The position numbers and the translations under genes were made by a program. 64,000 nucleotides of DNA from the sequence record NZ_CP041047.1; one strand, given 5' to 3'. This document shows positions 1,684 to 54,400 of this stretch, piece by piece; the stretch's first letter is position 1; the number at the start of each line of letters is the position of its first letter. Source of the stretch: a plasmid. Below the pieces are notes generated by a model that did not search any database, was not told the origin of the DNA, and saw only the letters and a list, made by a program, of their open reading frames with translations.

Positions 1684-1696
1684 CAGGTGACGAAGG
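1684..1696 (-). promoter_or_regulatory. conserved 13-mer CAGGTGACGAAGG (motif B) upstream of the 1321..1626 gene
   Basis: exact copy of a 12-13-mer also found at 4615, 5658 and 16875. Confidence 0.4.
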
Positions 1697-1780
1697 CGAT
1701 ACGGCGGGTATTATCAGAATGATTATGTCGGTCTGAAATGGTGCATAAGGGAGCCGTCAGGCCCGGCTCCGGGATGCGAA

Positions 1781-2053
1781 TCAGCGGTCGTTATGCTGTA
1801 GCACCTCCACGAACTGTCCGCAGCTGTCACAGCAGTACTCATTGGCGAATCTGCCATCGTCCTTCCAGTTGTTTGCCCCGCAGCGGCAAAGCAGTACACG
1901 TACCTGAGAAGGGCGGATGCGAGCTTGCCCGAATTTGGTTGTCCACTGAGGCTCGCCATCAAAGCGAAAGGAGTCGATGCGAAACCTGCTTTCGCGTTCG
2001 AGGGTGTTGAGATATTTGAAGTACAGCTCTTCAGAAAGGATGGCATCGGTCAT
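1781..2053 (-). CDS. hypothetical small Cys-rich protein
   Basis: ORF 1781..2230 trimmed to the internal ATG at 2053, because the upstream gene ends at 2169; C-terminal CxC...CCxxC. Confidence 0.35.
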   Translation of the reverse strand: MTDAILSEELYFKYLNTLERESRFRIDSFRFDGEPQWTTKFGQARIRPSQVRVLLCRCGANNWKDDGRFANEYCCDSCGQFVEVLQHNDR

Positions 2054-2168
2054 CGTGTATTCCCTGTCTGGCCCCGTGGCTGGTGATTTGCGGCAGAGTG
2101 TTGCGTTGCGAAAACTGCCTGGGTTGTCGGAGCCATTACACCACGGGTCATACAGGTCACGAAGGGGG

Positions 2169-2450
2169 CTACTTGCCTGCCAGCGCTTTCTCTTCCCGGG
2201 TAGCCAGGCGCATTTGCCCAAAACCTTCACGGATCAGCAACGGCTTTTCTTTCTTCCAGCCCTTAATGACGGACTCACCGAAACGACGCGGGGCGTTACC
2301 ATTCCAGGTGGCGATGACATGGTTGTCATGGACTTCGACAATCACGACCGGGTGGACGACAACCGTCTTAAGTGTGGTGTTGCCCATATTTACCCGGCTA
2401 ACCGACCAGACACTCATCCCGGCTTCCAGCTGGCTTATTTTCATCTTCAC
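2169..2450 (-). CDS. hypothetical protein
   Basis: 93-aa ORF. Confidence 0.4.
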   Translation of the reverse strand: MKMKISQLEAGMSVWSVSRVNMGNTTLKTVVVHPVVIVEVHDNHVIATWNGNAPRRFGESVIKGWKKEKPLLIREGFGQMRLATREEKALAGK

Positions 2451-2519
2451 TTCCTTCTAAACGAACGTCGTGCGCCACGCGCTTAATGTCGTGACGCACA
2501 TTACCATGCCCGGGGCTTA

Positions 2520-51228: not shown

Positions 51229-51795
51229 TTATTTAATGTAACTCCCTTTCTGAGGTGGTTGCGATGTCTCACCCTGGGATTGCGCTGGTACAGCGGCAAC
51301 CGGTGCAGACATCGGTCTGATAACAGCAGTTGACGTGGCACTATTTCTTGCACCTACCTCCCAACGACGCGGCTCAATCTCGGTATAGACGTAGCCAGGG
51401 ACGTTAAGGTCACCATCTGCGGTCTCATAGGGGTCAACCAGCACCCGCATGACGATAGATTGTGTTCGGATGGGTTGAGGATCAGCAGCGGTAGCAGGCA
51501 CAGGGACGTATCGACCACCATCGGCAGTATTCCGTCCACCGTTCTCAGCTGTAGTGCGAAGCCGCTTAACCTCCACAGGCTTTCCCGAAAGTTGGTTTTC
51601 AGATGCGGTGTCAATCTGCTCCTGATAATCATCTCCATCGGTCAGGGCATACACATCTCGGACATTCATACATGTGACCGAATTGGGCATTCCCTTGCAT
51701 CCATATTCATCGTTCTGGCCCAGTAGTGAGCAACCCGACATCGCAAAACCGGCACTAACTAAAAACAATGCCGATACAATTTTCTTCGTCATCAT
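51229..51795 (-). CDS. traV: TraV lipoprotein
   Basis: lipobox 'AMSGCSLL'; position after traB; terminator hairpin downstream at ~51140-51228. Confidence 0.7.
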   Translation of the reverse strand: MMTKKIVSALFLVSAGFAMSGCSLLGQNDEYGCKGMPNSVTCMNVRDVYALTDGDDYQEQIDTASENQLSGKPVEVKRLRTTAENGGRNTADGGRYVPVPATAADPQPIRTQSIVMRVLVDPYETADGDLNVPGYVYTEIEPRRWEVGARNSATSTAVIRPMSAPVAAVPAQSQGETSQPPQKGSYIK

Positions 51796-53189
51796 TTCTT
51801 GCCCCCAACGGTTTGAGTTTTTGAAGTAACACGTGTGAATTTCAGCATGACCCCTTTTTGCACAATAAAATCAACACTACGGCCTGGATCAATTTCAATT
51901 ACAGGGAAAAGGTCACCGGCCATTTGCATATAGAAATCGGCAAGGCGATTCAATGCGCCACCTACGCCAGAAACAGCTGCGCCCTGGAGTGCGTCAGAGC
52001 TCATAACCTGCTGGTATGGAGTGGAATCGCTGCTATCTCCATCGCGTTTAATACTGATTGTAGGAATGCTCTGGACATTAAAGAGCTGAGACGCTGCCTG
52101 TAGGAAGCCTGCGGTCAGGGCTCGCGCCAGGTATTGCCCTTGTTTGGTAACCAATCGACCACGAACGCCTGATTTACCATCTTCACCAACAGCGTATGCT
52201 ACGAGTGGGGCTTCAAAAACCGCACCGTCATCCCGAATGCACGTAATGACTTCCGACCTGAAATAAGCTCTTCCGGAAGACAAATCACCGAACCCAGCTG
52301 CAAGCATTCCGCATTCGCGTATATCTGCCCGGAAACGGTTTGGAAGAATTGCATCCTTTTTCACCCTGGCCAGTGCCGGGTAAGGGTCTTTTCGTGCATC
52401 ACGAGATGTTGGAGCATCCATCCCCGCAATCAAAACAGTACTTATGATCGACGTTGCAGGAAGGTAGGTCTGGTTCTCGGGGTTATCATCTTCGTCAGCA
52501 ACGGGGGCGGCTTCAATATCTTCCTGTACAGTGATAATTTCAGGAGTTATCTGGCTTGGAACTGCTTTGCCATCCTTCCCTTTCTGCTGTCGCTGGTTTG
52601 CTGCGGGTTCCGGTACGACTGGGGGAGCCGCATCTTCGTATACGCGCTGTAATGTTTTCCCGTTATTGAAACTTCCTGAGTTTCTGGGCGTAACGGAAGG
52701 GGCTGATATCTCTTCAGGTTTATATAGAGTTGGGACGTTACGTTGGCCGTTTCCAGCCAGTGGTGTCGCTCCGCGTGGCTGTTGTGAGTAAGGCACAGGG
52801 TTAGAGACGGTATCAACGCGTTTCTTAATAGCGGCAACCTCAGCGCCTGATTTTTTCTGGCCGTTCTCCAGATTGCTAAGTCGCTGAGCTGTCTGGTCAG
52901 CACCATATTTTTCGGTTAACGCTTTAATCAGTTGGCCTTGATCTTTAATTGTCTTGTCGAGTGCGCGAATTCGCGCCGCAATAGCATTCTGGCTAACCCC
53001 ATTGGTATCACCGTCGGTAAGGACGCTGGCAATCACTTTTTCTTGTGGCGCACGGCTTCGGGGGCCAGCTGAGTCAGGGATAACCAAGAGCAAAAAAAGT
53101 ATGGCGAAAGTCGTTACGCCAGCCCATATAACCCATTTTTTATGCTTTGCTGAAATTGAGGCCCATTTCTCTTTTAAAGGGATAAGCAT
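51792..53189 (-). CDS. traB: TraB (VirB10-like)
   Basis: start trimmed to 53189, just after the traK stop; N-terminal TM 'WAGVTTFAILFLLLVI', Pro-rich region. Confidence 0.8.
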   Translation of the reverse strand: MLIPLKEKWASISAKHKKWVIWAGVTTFAILFLLLVIPDSAGPRSRAPQEKVIASVLTDGDTNGVSQNAIAARIRALDKTIKDQGQLIKALTEKYGADQTAQRLSNLENGQKKSGAEVAAIKKRVDTVSNPVPYSQQPRGATPLAGNGQRNVPTLYKPEEISAPSVTPRNSGSFNNGKTLQRVYEDAAPPVVPEPAANQRQQKGKDGKAVPSQITPEIITVQEDIEAAPVADEDDNPENQTYLPATSIISTVLIAGMDAPTSRDARKDPYPALARVKKDAILPNRFRADIRECGMLAAGFGDLSSGRAYFRSEVITCIRDDGAVFEAPLVAYAVGEDGKSGVRGRLVTKQGQYLARALTAGFLQAASQLFNVQSIPTISIKRDGDSSDSTPYQQVMSSDALQGAAVSGVGGALNRLADFYMQMAGDLFPVIEIDPGRSVDFIVQKGVMLKFTRVTSKTQTVGGKK

Positions 53190-53193
53190 GATT

Positions 53194-54309
53194 TTACTCC
53201 GCGAGTTTAGGGCGCATGGAATCGTTAGCTTGTTCGTTTGGCTGGATGTTGCGGATAACGAAGTAAGCTTCAGTTCGCTGGCCAGGCTGGAGAGTGTTAC
53301 GACTCCATAATGCTCTTGCTGCAAGCTGAGGGTGGGTGCAGAGTGATTCATCAACCATTACCGTTGATGAACCAGTGTTTTGTGCAACCCCGATGATGAC
53401 ACTGAATTGACTACCCTGAAGATACTGGCCATTACCGAAGGAGTAACGAATCTGATCCTGGTCAGTGCCCGTGCGGAAATTACAGTTTGGGATCCCAACC
53501 CCTGAAGATAGATTGCCCAGCGAGTAGCCAGGGGGGATGTCGCCAAGCGCGATAGTTCGCATTATGTTTCGAATGGTCTCGATGTAGTTATCTTTCTGTT
53601 CCCATCGTTTGGCTTTAACTTCACTTCCACCAAAGCTGTTATATCCAGCAGGAATGACCCCAGATGCACCGGTGGAATTCAGCTTGCGCGAAAGCATAAG
53701 GGAGGCCTGAACAGGCGCAATTTTCTGGGGCACTAACGATACGGAAATCGCAACGCTTTCGTCACCTTTCTCGCTGATATAAAGACTTGCCGGGTTACTG
53801 TCAGCAGTTGACACGTAGAGGGCATTATCTTTGACGGTTACGGTCACACCCTCCTGTTTTACCTTCTGAACAACAGGATGTTCGAATGGCGTAACGAGTC
53901 GGTTGATCTGGTTAATAGAGATCGGCACGAGGGTATTAACGCCCGGTGTAACGATGTACTCCAACCGAGATGGGATGACCTCTTTAGTCAGTGGAACCGG
54001 GCTGGCAATGGCGGCTGGAACTGGTTGAATATTACGGCCATCAATAGCCGGTTCATCACCACCCGCGTTTGTGCCATTTGCTGGTGGCGTGTAGTTGTCA
54101 GGGTAAGGGCGTGTTGCCGTACTGAGCATTGCCTGGGTCGTGGACGCTGGTCGAGAGGCGAGCTTCGCAGTAACTTTTGGTTGTGCCTGAGCATCAGGCT
54201 GTTCAAACACCATCCCTTGATCAACCGACATTTCCCCCGCAGTTACATGGGCAGCAAATGTGGATGACACGAAAAGCATCAGGATAATTGTGCGTTTACT
54301 ATTCAACAT
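53194..54309 (-). CDS. traK: TraK (secretin-like/VirB9-like)
   Basis: signal peptide; 371 aa; between traE and traB. Confidence 0.75.
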   Translation of the reverse strand: MLNSKRTIILMLFVSSTFAAHVTAGEMSVDQGMVFEQPDAQAQPKVTAKLASRPASTTQAMLSTATRPYPDNYTPPANGTNAGGDEPAIDGRNIQPVPAAIASPVPLTKEVIPSRLEYIVTPGVNTLVPISINQINRLVTPFEHPVVQKVKQEGVTVTVKDNALYVSTADSNPASLYISEKGDESVAISVSLVPQKIAPVQASLMLSRKLNSTGASGVIPAGYNSFGGSEVKAKRWEQKDNYIETIRNIMRTIALGDIPPGYSLGNLSSGVGIPNCNFRTGTDQDQIRYSFGNGQYLQGSQFSVIIGVAQNTGSSTVMVDESLCTHPQLAARALWSRNTLQPGQRTEAYFVIRNIQPNEQANDSMRPKLAE

Positions 54310-54388
54310 TTAGCCCCCCGATAAGTGGCAACGCTACGTTCATTTTTAAATTGGCTATTACCAATCAGAAAAATCATTTCGGCACATC

Positions 54389-54400
54389 CGTTTTGTTTAC
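54389..54400 (-). promoter_or_regulatory. conserved 12-mer CGTTTTGTTTAC ~80 nt upstream of traK
   Basis: exact motif A in the traE-traK intergenic region. Confidence 0.35.

What the first reader, a model, noticed from the sequence alone, without database searches (positions are those of the whole stretch)
1684..54400. Two exact, over-represented 12-13-mers (CAGGTGACGAAGG and CGTTTTGTTTAC) forming a bipartite upstream signature
CGTTTTGTTTAC occurs exactly 6 times (3521, 4583, 8900, 11448, 27282, 54389). CAGGTGACGAAG occurs exactly 4 times (1684, 4615, 5658; reverse complement at 16875), plus near-copies at 3554 and 8938. A random 12-mer is expected <0.01 times in 64 kb.

At 3.5 kb and 4.6 kb the two elements sit 20-21 nt apart, 30-50 nt upstream of minus-strand starts. 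The plus-strand copy at 16875 has the same orientation relative to its plus-strand lipoprotein gene.

This looks like a promoter/operator class for an element-encoded regulator or sigma-like factor (for example a SetCD/AcaCD-type activator or the HTH protein at 26822). It links leading-region genes to traK (54389) and to the gene at 26822 upstream of traF.
Basis: seen in the sequence. Interest (0 to 1): 0.6.

Follow-up and report, generated by a model that had tools for sequence, protein, structure and literature searches.

The report
Plasmid-wide promoter and leader cassette
The two repeated 12-mers are the -35 box and the transcript start of one promoter-leader cassette that this family of large resistance plasmids reuses in front of dozens of small backbone genes, which points to a dedicated regulator that has not been described.

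Summary
The window is an IncA/C-like MOBH plasmid of the pKPC-CAV1321 type.

CAGGTGACGAAG, read on the gene strand as cTTCGTCA(C/G)CtG, is not an upstream operator. It occupies the -35 region of a promoter class. TCGTCA lies exactly 16 bp from a sigma70-like, mostly extended (TGn) -10 hexamer.
- Of 37 copies in promoter context across three plasmid families, 35 have T at hexamer position 6 at that offset.
- The start codon lies 59-84 nt downstream of the box in 31 of the 37.

GTAAACAAAACG begins 2-13 nt after the -10, so it sits at or near the predicted transcript start of an A-rich leader. It is present in 13 of the 37.

In many copies the promoter spacer is complementary to the gene's own Shine-Dalgarno region (permutation p < 5e-5).

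The window holds about 11-12 such promoters. The cassette is conserved in Providencia and Morganella relatives, has a variant box in a third family, and is absent from IncA pRA1.

The main tra operons carry a different conserved block, which is the better AcaCD-type candidate. The box-binding factor is unknown. A conserved PerC-family protein is an untested candidate. I found no description in the searched literature.

The parts
1624..1696 (-). Promoter-leader cassette of gene 1321-1626. Box TTCGTCACC at 1686-1694, -10 TGTACT at 1666-1671, degenerate leader motif, ATG at 1626.
   Evidence: (PWM score 34.4). The spacer GCCCGTG pairs with CACGGGGC at the SD.
2051..2165 (-). Cassette of gene 1781-2053. 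Box TTCGTGACC at 2155-2163, -10 TGTAAT at 2135-2140, longer leader.
   Evidence: (31.6). The fold-back duplex of -25.1 kcal/mol ranks 1st of 23 against non-cognate SD regions.
3488..3565 (-). Cassette of gene 3032-3490. Box at 3555-3563, -10 TTTAAT at 3535-3540, GTAAACAAAACG at 3521-3532, ATG at 3490.
   Evidence: (30.6). CCAGTGAT/ATCACTGG covaries with CCCCGTG/CACGGGG of the 4.6-kb copy.
4552..4627 (-). Cassette of gene 3961-4554. Box at 4617-4625, -10 GATTAT at 4597-4602, GTAAACAAAACG at 4583-4594. An upstream terminator lies at 4643-4664.
   Evidence: (34.5). The orthologue in the 90%-identity clade keeps the box, -10, motif and stem despite a 9-nt leader deletion.
5024..5147 (-). Cassette of gene 4706-5026. 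Variant box TTCGTCTCC at 5137-5145, -10 CATGAT at 5117-5122.
   Evidence: (19.0). The orthologue in L006 is only about 65% identical but carries TTCGTCACC.
5587..5670 (-). Box promoter: box at 5660-5668, hexamer TTCACT at 5640-5645. It is followed by an SD and an ATG-TAA start-stop at 5592-5587, then an ORF-poor stretch.
   Evidence: (28.6).
8875..8949 (-). Cassette of gene 8626-8877. Box TTCGTCAGC at 8939-8947, -10 TTAACT at 8919-8924, GTAAACAAAACG at 8900-8911.
   Evidence: (28.3). The fold-back duplex of -26.7 kcal/mol ranks 1st.
9989..10052 (-). Weak variant cassette of gene 9428-9991. TTTGTCACC at 10043-10051, hexamer TGTTAT at 10023-10028.
   Evidence: (score 13.1, within the range reached by shuffles). 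Tentative.
16875..16944 (+). Cassette of the + strand gene 16942-17712 downstream of the FlhC-family gene. Box at 16876-16884, -10 TAGTAT at 16899-16904.
   Evidence: (30.2). The orthologous promoter in the Providencia plasmid keeps the box and the spacing.
20472..20620 (+). Box promoter in the traN-traG spacer, pointing at a small + strand ORF. Box TTCGTCAGC at 20473-20481, hexamer GAAGCT at 20496-20501.
   Evidence: (18.0). The Providencia orthologue has TTCGTCACC, 14 nt, then GAGAAT upstream of an annotated 58-aa ORF.
54307..54464 (-). traK promoter. Box variant TTCGTCAGT at 54455-54463, TATAAA at 54435-54440, GTAAACAAAACGGATG at 54389-54400 about 35 nt into the leader, ATG at 54309.
   Evidence: (16.6). 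The box, the 16-bp spacing and TATAAA are conserved upstream of traK in Providencia pP50213-1.
62234..62467 (+). Possible box promoter inside the 5' end of mobH, pointing at the divergent gene 62465-63034. Box at 62235-62243, hexamer TAGCCT at 62258-62263.
   Evidence: (19.0). The leader is long (about 200 nt). Tentative.
11438..11962 (-). Three GTAAAC(A)AA(A/G)CGGA copies without a box (11438-11449, 11740-11751, 11951-11962), in the 888-bp ORF-less stretch downstream of mobI.
   Evidence: A copy lies just downstream of mobI in Providencia too.
27282..27293 (-). GTAAACAAAACGGATGCACA, 122 nt upstream of the 112-aa gene that heads the traF-traH-traG operon. There is no box.
   Evidence: It is the only conserved block besides the terminator in the window/Providencia alignment of this spacer.
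40472..40483 (+). GTAAACTAAACGGATGTACA, between the divergent genes 39815-40426 (-) and acaB 40865-41611 (+). It is inverted relative to the nearer gene.

Best explanation
SHOWN BY SEQUENCE STATISTICS
- The two 12-mers are the two most conserved pieces of a reusable promoter-leader cassette of this plasmid lineage.
- On the gene strand the order is: often the upstream gene's terminator and a T-rich stretch; the box cTTCGTCA(C/G)CtG; a spacer such that TCGTCA is exactly 16 bp from the -10; a sigma70-type -10 hexamer that always ends in T and is usually preceded by TGn (extended -10); a predicted start about 7 nt later; a 25-50 nt A-rich, G-poor leader; the SD; the ATG.
- In about a third of copies the leader opens with GTAAACAAAAC(G/A).
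- The box therefore occupies -36 to -25.

INFERRED
1. The box is invariant in about 50 promoters, is non-palindromic, sits at a rigid distance from the -10, and changes sequence between plasmid families whose enterobacterial hosts should share essentially the same sigma70 specificity (my own knowledge, not tested here). From this I infer that a plasmid-encoded factor working at the core promoter reads it. That factor would be an activator or sigma-appropriating protein replacing the -35 contact, as at phage T4 middle promoters. It is less likely to be sigma70 alone or a repressor. The factor is not identified. A PerC-family protein conserved in exactly the box-bearing families is a candidate.
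2. The leader 12-mer marks the transcript start. It acts either as an unstructured A/C-rich translation leader or as a second operator over +1.
3. The complementarity between each promoter's spacer (upstream of its own start) and its own SD would occlude the ribosome site only in read-through transcripts. Translation would then be tied to firing of the gene's own promoter, as in IS10 fold-back inhibition.
For: Geometry
- There are 61 distinct box copies in the window, in 100 kb of the same plasmid, in Providencia pP50213-1 and in Morganella contigs. 37 lie in promoter context.
- 35/37 have T at hexamer position 6 exactly 14 nt after the 9-mer, against 2 and 4 at offsets 13 and 15.
- The best -10 match is at that offset in 31/37.
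- G at -14 in 30/37; TG in 21/37.
- Box-to-ATG distance is 59-84 nt in 31/37.
- The leader is 43% A and 16% G.
- The information profile and the PWM scan of the window agree.

Orientation
- The box follows the gene on both strands: 16876+, 20473+, and + strand copies elsewhere.

Conservation
- The same box, spacing and leader motif occur in Providencia (AcaC 67% identical, spacers otherwise unalignable).
- They also occur in Morganella psychrotolerans and in a MAG.
- Chance hits of the same pattern in other taxa lack the -10.
- pECTOK-001_1 (AcaC 52%) has a variant box, gcTATTCGRCC, with the same 16-bp geometry.
- The box is absent from IncA pRA1, which instead has AcaCD palindromes.
- Orthologous cassettes in the 90% clade are nearly invariant from box to ATG.

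Fold-back
- Cognate spacer/SD duplexes average -13.1 kcal/mol against -10.1 for non-cognate pairs. Permutation p < 5e-5.
- Covarying arm pairs: CCCCGTG/CACGGGG, CCAGTGAT/ATCACTGG, CCTCGTGA/TCACGAGG.

PerC candidate
- The gene is annotated in an operon behind a box promoter.
- tblastn finds homologues only in the three box-bearing families.
Against: - There are no transcription start data. The start site is inferred from the -10 alone.
- TCGTCA matches TTGACA at 4 of 6 positions, so sigma70 alone could use it. Strong extended -10 promoters may not need an activator at all, which would favour a repressor.
- No DNA-binding factor is identified. The PerC co-occurrence is shared by every backbone gene of this lineage. 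PerC/Pch proteins are described as anti-H-NS derepressors with no known sequence motif (PMC4764244).
- GTAAACAAAACG also occurs without a box (11438, 27282) and once inverted relative to the nearest gene (40472). A purely 'transcript start' reading does not explain that.
- Its complement shares CGTTTTG with the conserved tra-operon block.
- The fold-back is strong in the Citrobacter family but weak in several Providencia copies.
- A few box copies have poor hexamers (5660 TTCACT, 20473 GAAGCT, 62235 TAGCCT).
Confidence: 0.6

Rival explanations
1. The box is the operator of a global plasmid repressor, in the manner of IncP KorA/KorB or IncW ArdK/StbA. The promoters are intrinsically strong extended -10 promoters. 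They fire briefly after entry into a new cell (zygotic induction) and are then shut off by a repressor sitting on the -35 region. GTAAACAAAACG over +1 could be a second operator.
For: - Most copies have TGn plus a reasonable -10, which can work without a -35 contact.
- The driven genes look like establishment or maintenance functions: ssb, a ParB/RepB/Spo0J-family gene, PAPS-reductase-family genes, and many small orphans.
- Each gene is insulated by a terminator and by the fold-back, as expected if tight shut-off matters.
- In pECTOK-001_1 the equivalent leader position holds a perfect palindrome, TTATTCATA-N3-5-TATGAATAA, which is typical of a dimeric repressor operator.
Against: - The box is non-palindromic.
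- Its distance to the -10 never varies, whereas operators usually tolerate positional variation.
- It is invariant at 7 of 7 core positions in about 50 sites.
- No repressor candidate is identified.
Confidence: 0.22
2. The motifs are operators of the plasmid's FlhDC-like master activator (AcaCD/SetCD type), which binds next to or over the -35 and switches these genes on together with the transfer genes.
For: - The plasmid encodes an FlhC-family protein (Pfam E = 5.5e-14) and an AcaB-family protein.
- AcaCD/SetCD promoters lack a canonical -35, and the operator abuts or overlaps it (PMC4207636, PMC4344509).
- traK has a conserved box promoter.
- In the Providencia and pECTOK plasmids a box precedes the parM-acaDC operon.
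Against: - traN, dsbC-traC, traL and traF-operon upstream regions lack the box. They share another conserved block, CGTTTTGC-N-G-NCC-TTYT, about 23 nt upstream of a hexamer ending in T. That is the class II position.
- No GCCC-N5-GGGC palindromes lie upstream of tra genes.
- Most box-driven genes are non-transfer genes spread over more than 100 kb.
- The box is asymmetric and lies inside the -35 region, not upstream of it.
Confidence: 0.1
3. The box is simply an unusual -35 hexamer (TCGTCA) read by host sigma70. The cassette is conserved only because it spread by duplication and recombination within this plasmid lineage. No dedicated factor exists.
For: - TCGTCA matches TTGACA at 4 of 6 positions.
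- The 16-bp spacing and the extended -10 are within sigma70 norms.
- Terminator-plus-box modules look duplicated (4643-4664 and 5168-5185).
Against: - Sequences flanking the box are unrelated between copies, so recent duplication does not explain the invariance.
- The box is kept in families whose spacers no longer align.
- It differs in a third family living in the same hosts.
- Spacer length never drifts to 17 or 18.
- Conservation extends beyond the hexamer (c at -1, C at +8, G at +10).
Confidence: 0.1
4. The cassettes are Frpo/ssi-type single-stranded DNA promoters of a leading region. The entering strand folds into a hairpin that mimics a duplex promoter, so the genes are transcribed before complementary-strand synthesis.
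For: - More than 100 kb of co-oriented small genes lies next to mobI/oriT.
- Every cassette contains an inverted repeat.
- Leading regions elsewhere carry such promoters (PMC11541004).
Against: - The predicted stems are only 7-13 bp and close a 30-50 nt unpaired loop.
- The -35 box is not paired with anything.
- The -10 lies in the loop.
- Genes run away from mobI/oriT. If transfer leads into this region, the transferred strand would be the coding strand, not the template.
- The nick site and polarity are unknown (PMC5587640).
Confidence: 0.04
5. The motifs are ends or fragments of a dispersed repeat such as a MITE, with no regulatory role.
For: There are multiple exact copies.
Against: - Only 9-12 bp are shared and the flanks are unrelated.
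- The position relative to the -10 and the ATG is strict, and the orientation follows the gene.
- The motifs are conserved across genera.
Confidence: 0.01

Closest known systems
AcaCD- and SetCD-dependent promoters of IncA/C plasmids and SXT/R391 elements (class II, FlhDC-like activators)
   Same: - The backbone is related: MobI, MOBH relaxase, F-type tra genes, FlhC-family and AcaB-family genes.
- A family-specific element replaces a recognisable -35 in many promoters of the element.
   Different: - The AcaCD box is a palindrome, GCCCNDWWWGGGC, lying upstream of the -35, and it drives the tra operons (PMC8373056).
- Here the box is asymmetric, lies in the -35 region itself, and mostly drives non-tra genes.
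- The tra operons carry a separate conserved block.
Phage T4 middle promoters (MotA box plus sigma70 -10, with AsiA). Recalled from my own knowledge, not tested here.
   Same: A sigma70-type, often extended -10, with a conserved asymmetric box centred near -30 at a fixed distance, in place of a -35 hexamer. Many promoters share it.
   Different: - The box sequence is different (T4: TGCTTtA).
- No MotA or AsiA homologue was looked for or found.
- The element is a plasmid, not a phage.
- This is a functional analogy only.
Global regulons of conjugative plasmids (IncP KorA/KorB/TrbA; IncW R388 ArdK/StbA). Recalled from my own knowledge.
   Same: One short DNA element recurs in many backbone promoters of a plasmid and ties maintenance and establishment genes into one circuit.
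   Different: - Those operators are mostly palindromic or iterated, are bound by known repressors, and vary in position.
- Here the element is asymmetric, rigidly spaced, and the factor is unknown.
IS10/Tn10 fold-back inhibition of transposase translation. Recalled from my own knowledge.
   Same: Sequence upstream of the element's own transcription start is complementary to the ribosome binding site, so only transcripts that read in from outside can form the occluding hairpin.
   Different: Here it recurs gene by gene along a plasmid backbone. It is inferred from complementarity statistics only.
Frpo/ssi single-stranded DNA promoters of plasmid leading regions (PMC11541004, PMC9849209)
   Same: Repeated promoter elements with dyad symmetry in front of co-oriented small genes near oriT.
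   Different: - There is no long stem carrying the -35 and -10.
- The box is unpaired.
- The strand logic probably does not fit.

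Membership tests
sigma70 extended -10 promoter | -10 hexamer resembling TATAAT, with the near-invariant final T, at a defined distance from the -35 region | tested here: met
   35/37 copies have T at hexamer position 6 exactly 16 bp after TCGTCA, against 2 and 4 at neighbouring offsets. 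The best -10 match is at that offset in 31/37.
sigma70 extended -10 promoter | TG at -15/-14 | tested here: met
   G at -14 in 30/37 and TG in 21/37 promoter-context copies, against 9/24 and 5/24 of box copies in other contexts.
sigma70 extended -10 promoter | Transcription start 6-8 nt downstream of the hexamer | not testable with these tools
   No transcript data are available for this plasmid family.
AcaCD/SetCD-type (FlhDC-like, class II) activated promoter | FlhC/FlhD-like activator genes on the element | tested here: met
   The product of 16284-16814 matches Pfam FlhC (E = 5.5e-14). The adjacent 176-aa product has no family hit. AcaB scores 25.3 bits, just under the cut-off of 27.
AcaCD/SetCD-type (FlhDC-like, class II) activated promoter | Operator lies immediately upstream of, or abuts, the -35. 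In IncA/C it is the palindrome GCCCNDWWWGGGC. | tested here: not met
   The box occupies -36 to -25 and is asymmetric. Nothing is conserved at a fixed position from -60 to -37. The palindrome scan found only coding or terminator hits.
AcaCD/SetCD-type (FlhDC-like, class II) activated promoter | The element precedes the main transfer operons (traI, traL, traV/A, dsbC-traC, traN, traF) | tested here: not met
   Only traK has a clear box. traN, dsbC, traL and traF-operon spacers share a different block.
Frpo/ssi single-stranded DNA promoter | Long imperfect hairpin in which the -35 and -10 are base-paired | tested here: not met
   DNA folds of both strands give 7-13 bp stems around a 30-50 nt loop. 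The box is unpaired.
Frpo/ssi single-stranded DNA promoter | Sequence similarity to known Frpo/ssi elements | not tested
There is no Rfam family match.
Frpo/ssi single-stranded DNA promoter | Genes lie in the leading region with the transferred strand as template | not testable with these tools
   The nick site and polarity are not established for IncA/C-like oriT (PMC5587640).
MITE or dispersed repeat | Copies share extended sequence with terminal repeats and have no fixed relation to genes | tested here: not met
   Only 9-12 bp are shared. The distance to the -10 and ATG is strict and the orientation follows the gene.
Fold-back occlusion of the ribosome site (IS10 type) | Sequence upstream of the own start site is complementary to the own SD region | tested here: met
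   Cognate against non-cognate duplex energies: permutation p < 5e-5, Mann-Whitney p = 0.001, n = 23. Covarying arms are seen.
Fold-back occlusion of the ribosome site (IS10 type) | Read-through transcripts are translated poorly | not testable with these tools
   This needs translational fusions.
-35-replacing activator system (T4 MotA type, by analogy) | Conserved asymmetric box near -30 at a fixed distance from a sigma70 -10, shared by many promoters | tested here: met
-35-replacing activator system (T4 MotA type, by analogy) | An element-encoded box-binding activator or sigma-remodelling protein | not tested
   There is only a phyletic hint for a PerC-family protein. There are no binding data.

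The most novel reading that the evidence does not exclude
pKPC-CAV1321-type plasmids and related Morganellaceae plasmids run more than 40 backbone promoters through one plasmid-encoded factor, possibly the conserved PerC-family protein. The factor reads TTCGTCA(C/G)C in place of a -35 hexamer at a rigid 16-bp distance from an extended -10. Each gene is also locked by a promoter-to-SD fold-back, so that it is translated only when its own promoter fires. This would be a sigma-appropriation-like regulon on a conjugative resistance plasmid, and it would give PerC-like proteins their first defined DNA target.
Probability: 0.2. Interest if true: 0.75.

Novelty: new variant of a known kind. Interest (0 to 1): 0.5.

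Why it matters
These 200-350 kb Citrobacter, Klebsiella and Enterobacter plasmids carry carbapenemase and fosA3 genes, and almost nothing is known about how their backbone is regulated.

A single invariant promoter element in front of dozens of orphan genes, ssb, ParB-like genes and PAPS-reductase-like genes would have three uses:
- It defines a regulon that can be read directly from sequence.
- It gives a concrete handle (box mutations, pull-downs) for finding the controlling factor.
- It separates this circuit from the AcaCD-type transfer circuit that the IncA/C literature would lead one to assume.

The gene-by-gene pairing of the promoter spacer with the ribosome site, if functional, would be an unusual plasmid-wide insulation device.

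Tried and rejected
- **IncA/C AcaCD palindrome scan of the window.** Only coding and terminator hits.
- **Rfam, at gathering and at E-value thresholds.** Nothing relevant.
- **Pfam and NCBIfam on about 30 window proteins**, including the supposed HTH protein at 26822. No families except FlhC, AcaB and DUF4400.
- **Folding the cassettes as RNA and as DNA on both strands, to test a Frpo-like hairpin.** Only a short basal stem.
- **Literature search for the four 11-12-mers.** Only unrelated primer matches.
- **Homology of the lipoprotein-like gene 16942-17712 to IncC Sfx.** tblastn found no IncA/C plasmids, so no claim is made.
- **A supposed third, 81%-identity clade.** It turned out to be a paralogous cassette of the same family.
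- **By-eye comparison of the box with sigma32, sigmaE, sigma54, ECF, PhoB, CpxR, IHF and FlhDC consensus sequences** recalled from memory. No convincing match, so none is claimed.
- **The idea that GTAAACAAAACG is a recombination junction.** Rejected: the break in similarity is a 9-nt deletion plus coding divergence.
- **The idea that the inverted 40472 copy encodes an anti-motif RNA pairing with the traK and traF leaders** (15 of 16 nt complementary). No promoter or terminator evidence, so it is left as speculation.
- **Transfer polarity.** I could not find it in the papers read.
- **AcaB binding-site data (Hancock 2020).** The paper is not held in the library.

Full report
**1. Observation**

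- CGTTTTGTTTAC occurs exactly six times, all on the + strand: 3521, 4583, 8900, 11438, 27282 and 54389.
- With four one-mismatch copies that makes 10 matches, against 0.44 expected in dinucleotide shuffles.
- CAGGTGACGAAG occurs exactly four times (1684, 4615 and 5658 on +; 16875 on -), plus one-mismatch copies at 2153 and 3553. That is 6 matches against 0.23 expected.
- The 20-nt gap between the two motifs at 3.5 and 4.6 kb holds. So do their position just upstream of minus-strand start codons and the flipped orientation at 16875.

**2. What the element is**

- The window is 100% identical over its first 20 kb (apart from one 4.76-kb insertion in the record) to Citrobacter freundii plasmid pNFYY361-1, which is 311 kb with a MOBH relaxase.
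- This is the pKPC-CAV1321-type group (PMC11378647).
- The backbone is IncA/C-like. It encodes MobI(A/C), a ParM-like protein, an FlhC-family protein (Pfam E = 5.5e-14), an AcaB-family protein, F-type tra genes, ssb-recT-exo and a MobH relaxase.

**3. The box is a -35 region**

Read on the gene strand, CAGGTGACGAAG is CTTCGTCACCTG.

*Counts*
- The 9-mer core TTCGTSASC occurs 14 times in the window against 2.1 expected.
- It occurs 13 times against 1.6 expected in the neighbouring 50 kb of the plasmid.
- Further copies lie at 33-55 kb, 156-168 kb and 303 kb of the record.

*Alignment of copies followed by an SD and an ORF*
- Flanks are unrelated.
- TTCGTCA is invariant; the next position is C or G, then C, then a preference for T and G.
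- G and TG lie just before a hexamer.
- The hexamer is TATAAT-like. Examples are GATTAT, TTTAAT, TGTAAT, TATGAT, TAAAAT, GATAAT, TAGTAT, TTAACT and GATACT.

*Unbiased count over 61 distinct copies from the window, pNFYY361-1, a Providencia plasmid and Morganella contigs*
- 37 copies lie in non-coding promoter context.
- 35 of these have T at hexamer position 6 exactly 14 nt after the 9-mer, which is 16 bp after TCGTCA. Only 2 and 4 do so at offsets 13 and 15.
- The best -10 match is at that offset in 31/37.
- G at -14 in 30/37; TG in 21/37.
- Box-to-ATG distance is 59-84 nt in 31/37.

This is the signature of an extended -10 sigma70-type promoter whose -35 region is the box.

A position weight matrix finds these copies in the window:
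- 4617, 1686, 2155, 3555, 16876(+), 5660 and 8939, all scoring 28-35 (the shuffle maximum is 17.5);
- 5137, 62235(+), 20473(+) and 54455 (traK), scoring 16-19;
- a weak variant at 10043.

**4. The second motif is the start of the leader**

- On the gene strand CGTTTTGTTTAC reads GTAAACAAAACG.
- In box promoters it begins 2-13 nt after the -10 hexamer and ends 15-30 nt before the ATG. It therefore lies at or just after the predicted start.
- It is present in 13 of 37 cassettes.
- The leaders as a whole are 43% A and 16% G.
- The 'bipartite upstream signature' is thus really -35 box, spacer, -10, then transcript start.

**5. Conservation**

- In the 90%-identity clade (pSA20083039.1) the orthologous cassettes are almost invariant from box to ATG. 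One copy keeps its stem despite a 9-nt leader deletion. One spacer that is only about 65% identical still carries the box.
- In Providencia rettgeri pP50213-1 the AcaC homologue is 67% identical and the spacers are otherwise unalignable. The same box, the same 14-nt offset, GATACT/GAGAAT hexamers and GTAAACAAAAC(G/A) leaders recur. This includes orthologous positions: the gene after acaC, the small ORF between traN and traG, and traK.
- A pattern scan of one genome per species for box-N20-34-GTAAACAAAAC returned about 29 scattered single hits, as expected by chance and lacking the -10. It also returned two clusters: five hits in Morganella psychrotolerans contigs and four in a rabbit-gut MAG. 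Both clusters have the full architecture.
- In E. coli pECTOK-001_1 (AcaC 52%) the box is replaced by gcTATTCGRCC with the same 16-bp geometry and GTG-extended -10. The leader there carries a different, palindromic element, TTATTCATA-N3-5-TATGAATAA.
- IncA plasmid pRA1 has AcaCD palindromes but no box class.

**6. Fold-back**

- In many cassettes the segment between box and -10, which lies upstream of the predicted start, is complementary to the gene's own SD region. Examples are CCCCGTG/CACGGGG (4.6 kb), CCAGTGAT/ATCACTGG (3.5 kb), CACCCGGCGTGTG/CATACGCGGGGTG (8.9 kb) and CCTCGTGA/TCACGAGG (a paralogue).
- Duplex energies of each spacer with its own SD region beat those with other genes' SD regions: mean -13.1 against -10.1 kcal/mol, permutation p < 5e-5, Mann-Whitney p = 0.001, n = 23.
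- The 5' arm is not part of a transcript started at the cassette's own promoter. The hairpin can therefore form only in read-through RNA or in single-stranded DNA.
- Together with the terminators that precede many cassettes, the most economical reading is insulation: read-through transcripts have their ribosome site occluded. This is inference, modelled on IS10 fold-back inhibition (my own knowledge).
- A Frpo-like single-strand promoter is unlikely. The stems are 7-13 bp around a large loop and the box stays unpaired.

**7. Who reads the box?**

- No GCCC-N5-GGGC lies upstream of tra genes.
- The spacers upstream of traN, dsbC, the traL operon and the traF operon lack the box.
- These spacers share another conserved block, CGTTTTGC-N-G-NCC-TTYT. 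It lies at traN 20558 and dsbC 48173 in the window, and at four operons in Providencia.
- That block lies about 23 nt upstream of a hexamer ending in T, the position expected for a class II operator.

*Evidence for a dedicated factor at the core promoter*
- The box is invariant, asymmetric and rigidly spaced.
- It changes between plasmid families that live in the same hosts.
- Functionally this resembles phage T4 MotA-dependent middle promoters (my own knowledge).
- A repressor, or sigma70 alone, cannot be excluded.

*One candidate, found outside the window*
- pNFYY361-1 encodes a PerC-family regulator in an operon behind a box promoter.
- tblastn finds its homologues in 150 plasmids that are the three box-bearing families, and in no IncA/C plasmid.
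- PerC/Pch proteins are small activators or anti-H-NS factors with no defined DNA motif (PMC4764244).
- This is a lead, not a result. The same phyletic pattern holds for any backbone gene of the lineage.

**8. Unresolved: GTAAACAAAACG outside cassettes**

- Copies at 11438, 11740 and 11951 (downstream of mobI), at 27282 (upstream of the traF operon) and at 40472 (between acaB and its divergent neighbour) have no box.
- They share the extension GTAAAC(A/T)AAACGGA(TG).
- The 27282 copy is a phylogenetic footprint: it is the only conserved block in that spacer between the window and Providencia.
- The 40472 copy is inverted relative to the nearer gene.
- The complement of the motif shares CGTTTTG with the tra block.
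- The 12-mer may therefore also be a protein-binding site. I cannot decide between DNA-level and RNA-level action.

**9. Novelty and score**

- I found no description of either motif in the searchable literature, and there is no Rfam family.
- The kind of thing is familiar: a shared promoter element defining a plasmid regulon.
- The particular architecture appears undescribed: an invariant -35-region box, a rigid 16-bp spacing, an extended -10, a conserved transcript start and promoter-to-SD fold-back.
- The factor is unknown.
- I rate it a new variant of a known kind, interest 0.5.

Noticed in passing
window 20558-20574 (-), 48173-48188 (-), 62387-62398 (+), 5736-5752 (-); L008 24733 and 31088; L011 2847 and 8503: A third conserved motif, CGTTTTGC-N-G-NCC-TTYT. 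In the window it lies upstream of traN, dsbC and the gene divergent from traI. In a Providencia relative it lies upstream of traN, dsbC, the traL operon and the traF operon. It usually sits 23 nt before a hexamer ending in T. This is probably the real operator of the FlhDC-like (AcaCD-type) activator in this lineage.
   Followed up: partly
window 34951-35321 and 38885-39251 (- strand): Two paralogous leaders of about 370 nt, upstream of the exo gene and of the genes preceding ssb. Each starts with a good TTGACC promoter. They are 50% identical, with hairpins that differ in sequence but keep pairing, and share a conserved block CCGTCGAAAAAGGTGTTT. Folding z-scores are -6 to -7 on the sense strand. 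No Rfam family matches. This may be an undescribed cis-regulatory RNA or a single-strand element.
   Followed up: partly
window 10122-10178 and 10272-10328 (- strand): A 57-nt direct repeat (CAGACCGAAACTTGCTTTCGGG..GGGGTTGGCCGAGCGAAGCGCTGGCAAG) in the 412-bp spacer upstream of gene 9428-9991. A related GGGGTTGGCCGA block occurs in a spacer of pECTOK-001_1.
   Followed up: no
window 5168-5670 (- strand): The box promoter at 5660 is followed by a strong SD and an ATG-TAA start-stop (5592-5587). After that comes about 400 nt with only tiny ORFs, ending at the terminator at 5185-5168. This could be a non-coding or small-peptide transcription unit.
   Followed up: no
window 11094-11981: An 888-bp ORF-less stretch downstream of mobI. 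It holds three GTAAAC..CGGA copies (211 and 302 nt apart) and two copies of AAAACCCCCGGAGGAAA that form terminator-like hairpins (11549-11565, 11635-11651).
   Followed up: no
window 12414-13598: An oriT-like region upstream of mobI. It contains repeated TATATGATATGGCAGAAA(A/C)C (12710, 12868) and TTTCTGG(A/G)G units (12490, 12605, 12762, 12919).
   Followed up: no
pNFYY361-1 record 52753-53088 (locus L052 2753-3088, - strand); outside the window: A PerC-family regulator gene sits in an operon behind a box promoter. Its homologues occur in the same three plasmid families that carry the box or its variant, and in no IncA/C plasmid. It is a candidate box-reading factor.
   Followed up: partly
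L009 (E. coli pECTOK-001_1), e.g. upstream of 3727-4734, 4905-5663, 6657-7157, 7717-7983: This related family has a variant box, gcTATTCGRCC, with the same 16-bp spacing. It also has a conserved palindrome, TTATTCATA-N3-5-TATGAATAA, between the -10 and the SD, which looks like a repressor operator.
   Followed up: partly
window 29980-40430 (- strand spacers): The short spacers of the VWA/DUF3150/MoxR/exo/recT/ssb gene cluster share an AT-rich leader that ends in AATGAGGTATA or AAGGTGATCAT immediately before the start codon. This is a repeated ribosome-site context distinct from the box cassettes.
   Followed up: no
window 817/818: Relative to pNFYY361-1 the window lacks a 4.76-kb segment that includes dinG and several small genes. 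Gene content in this co-oriented region therefore varies between otherwise identical plasmids.
   Followed up: no
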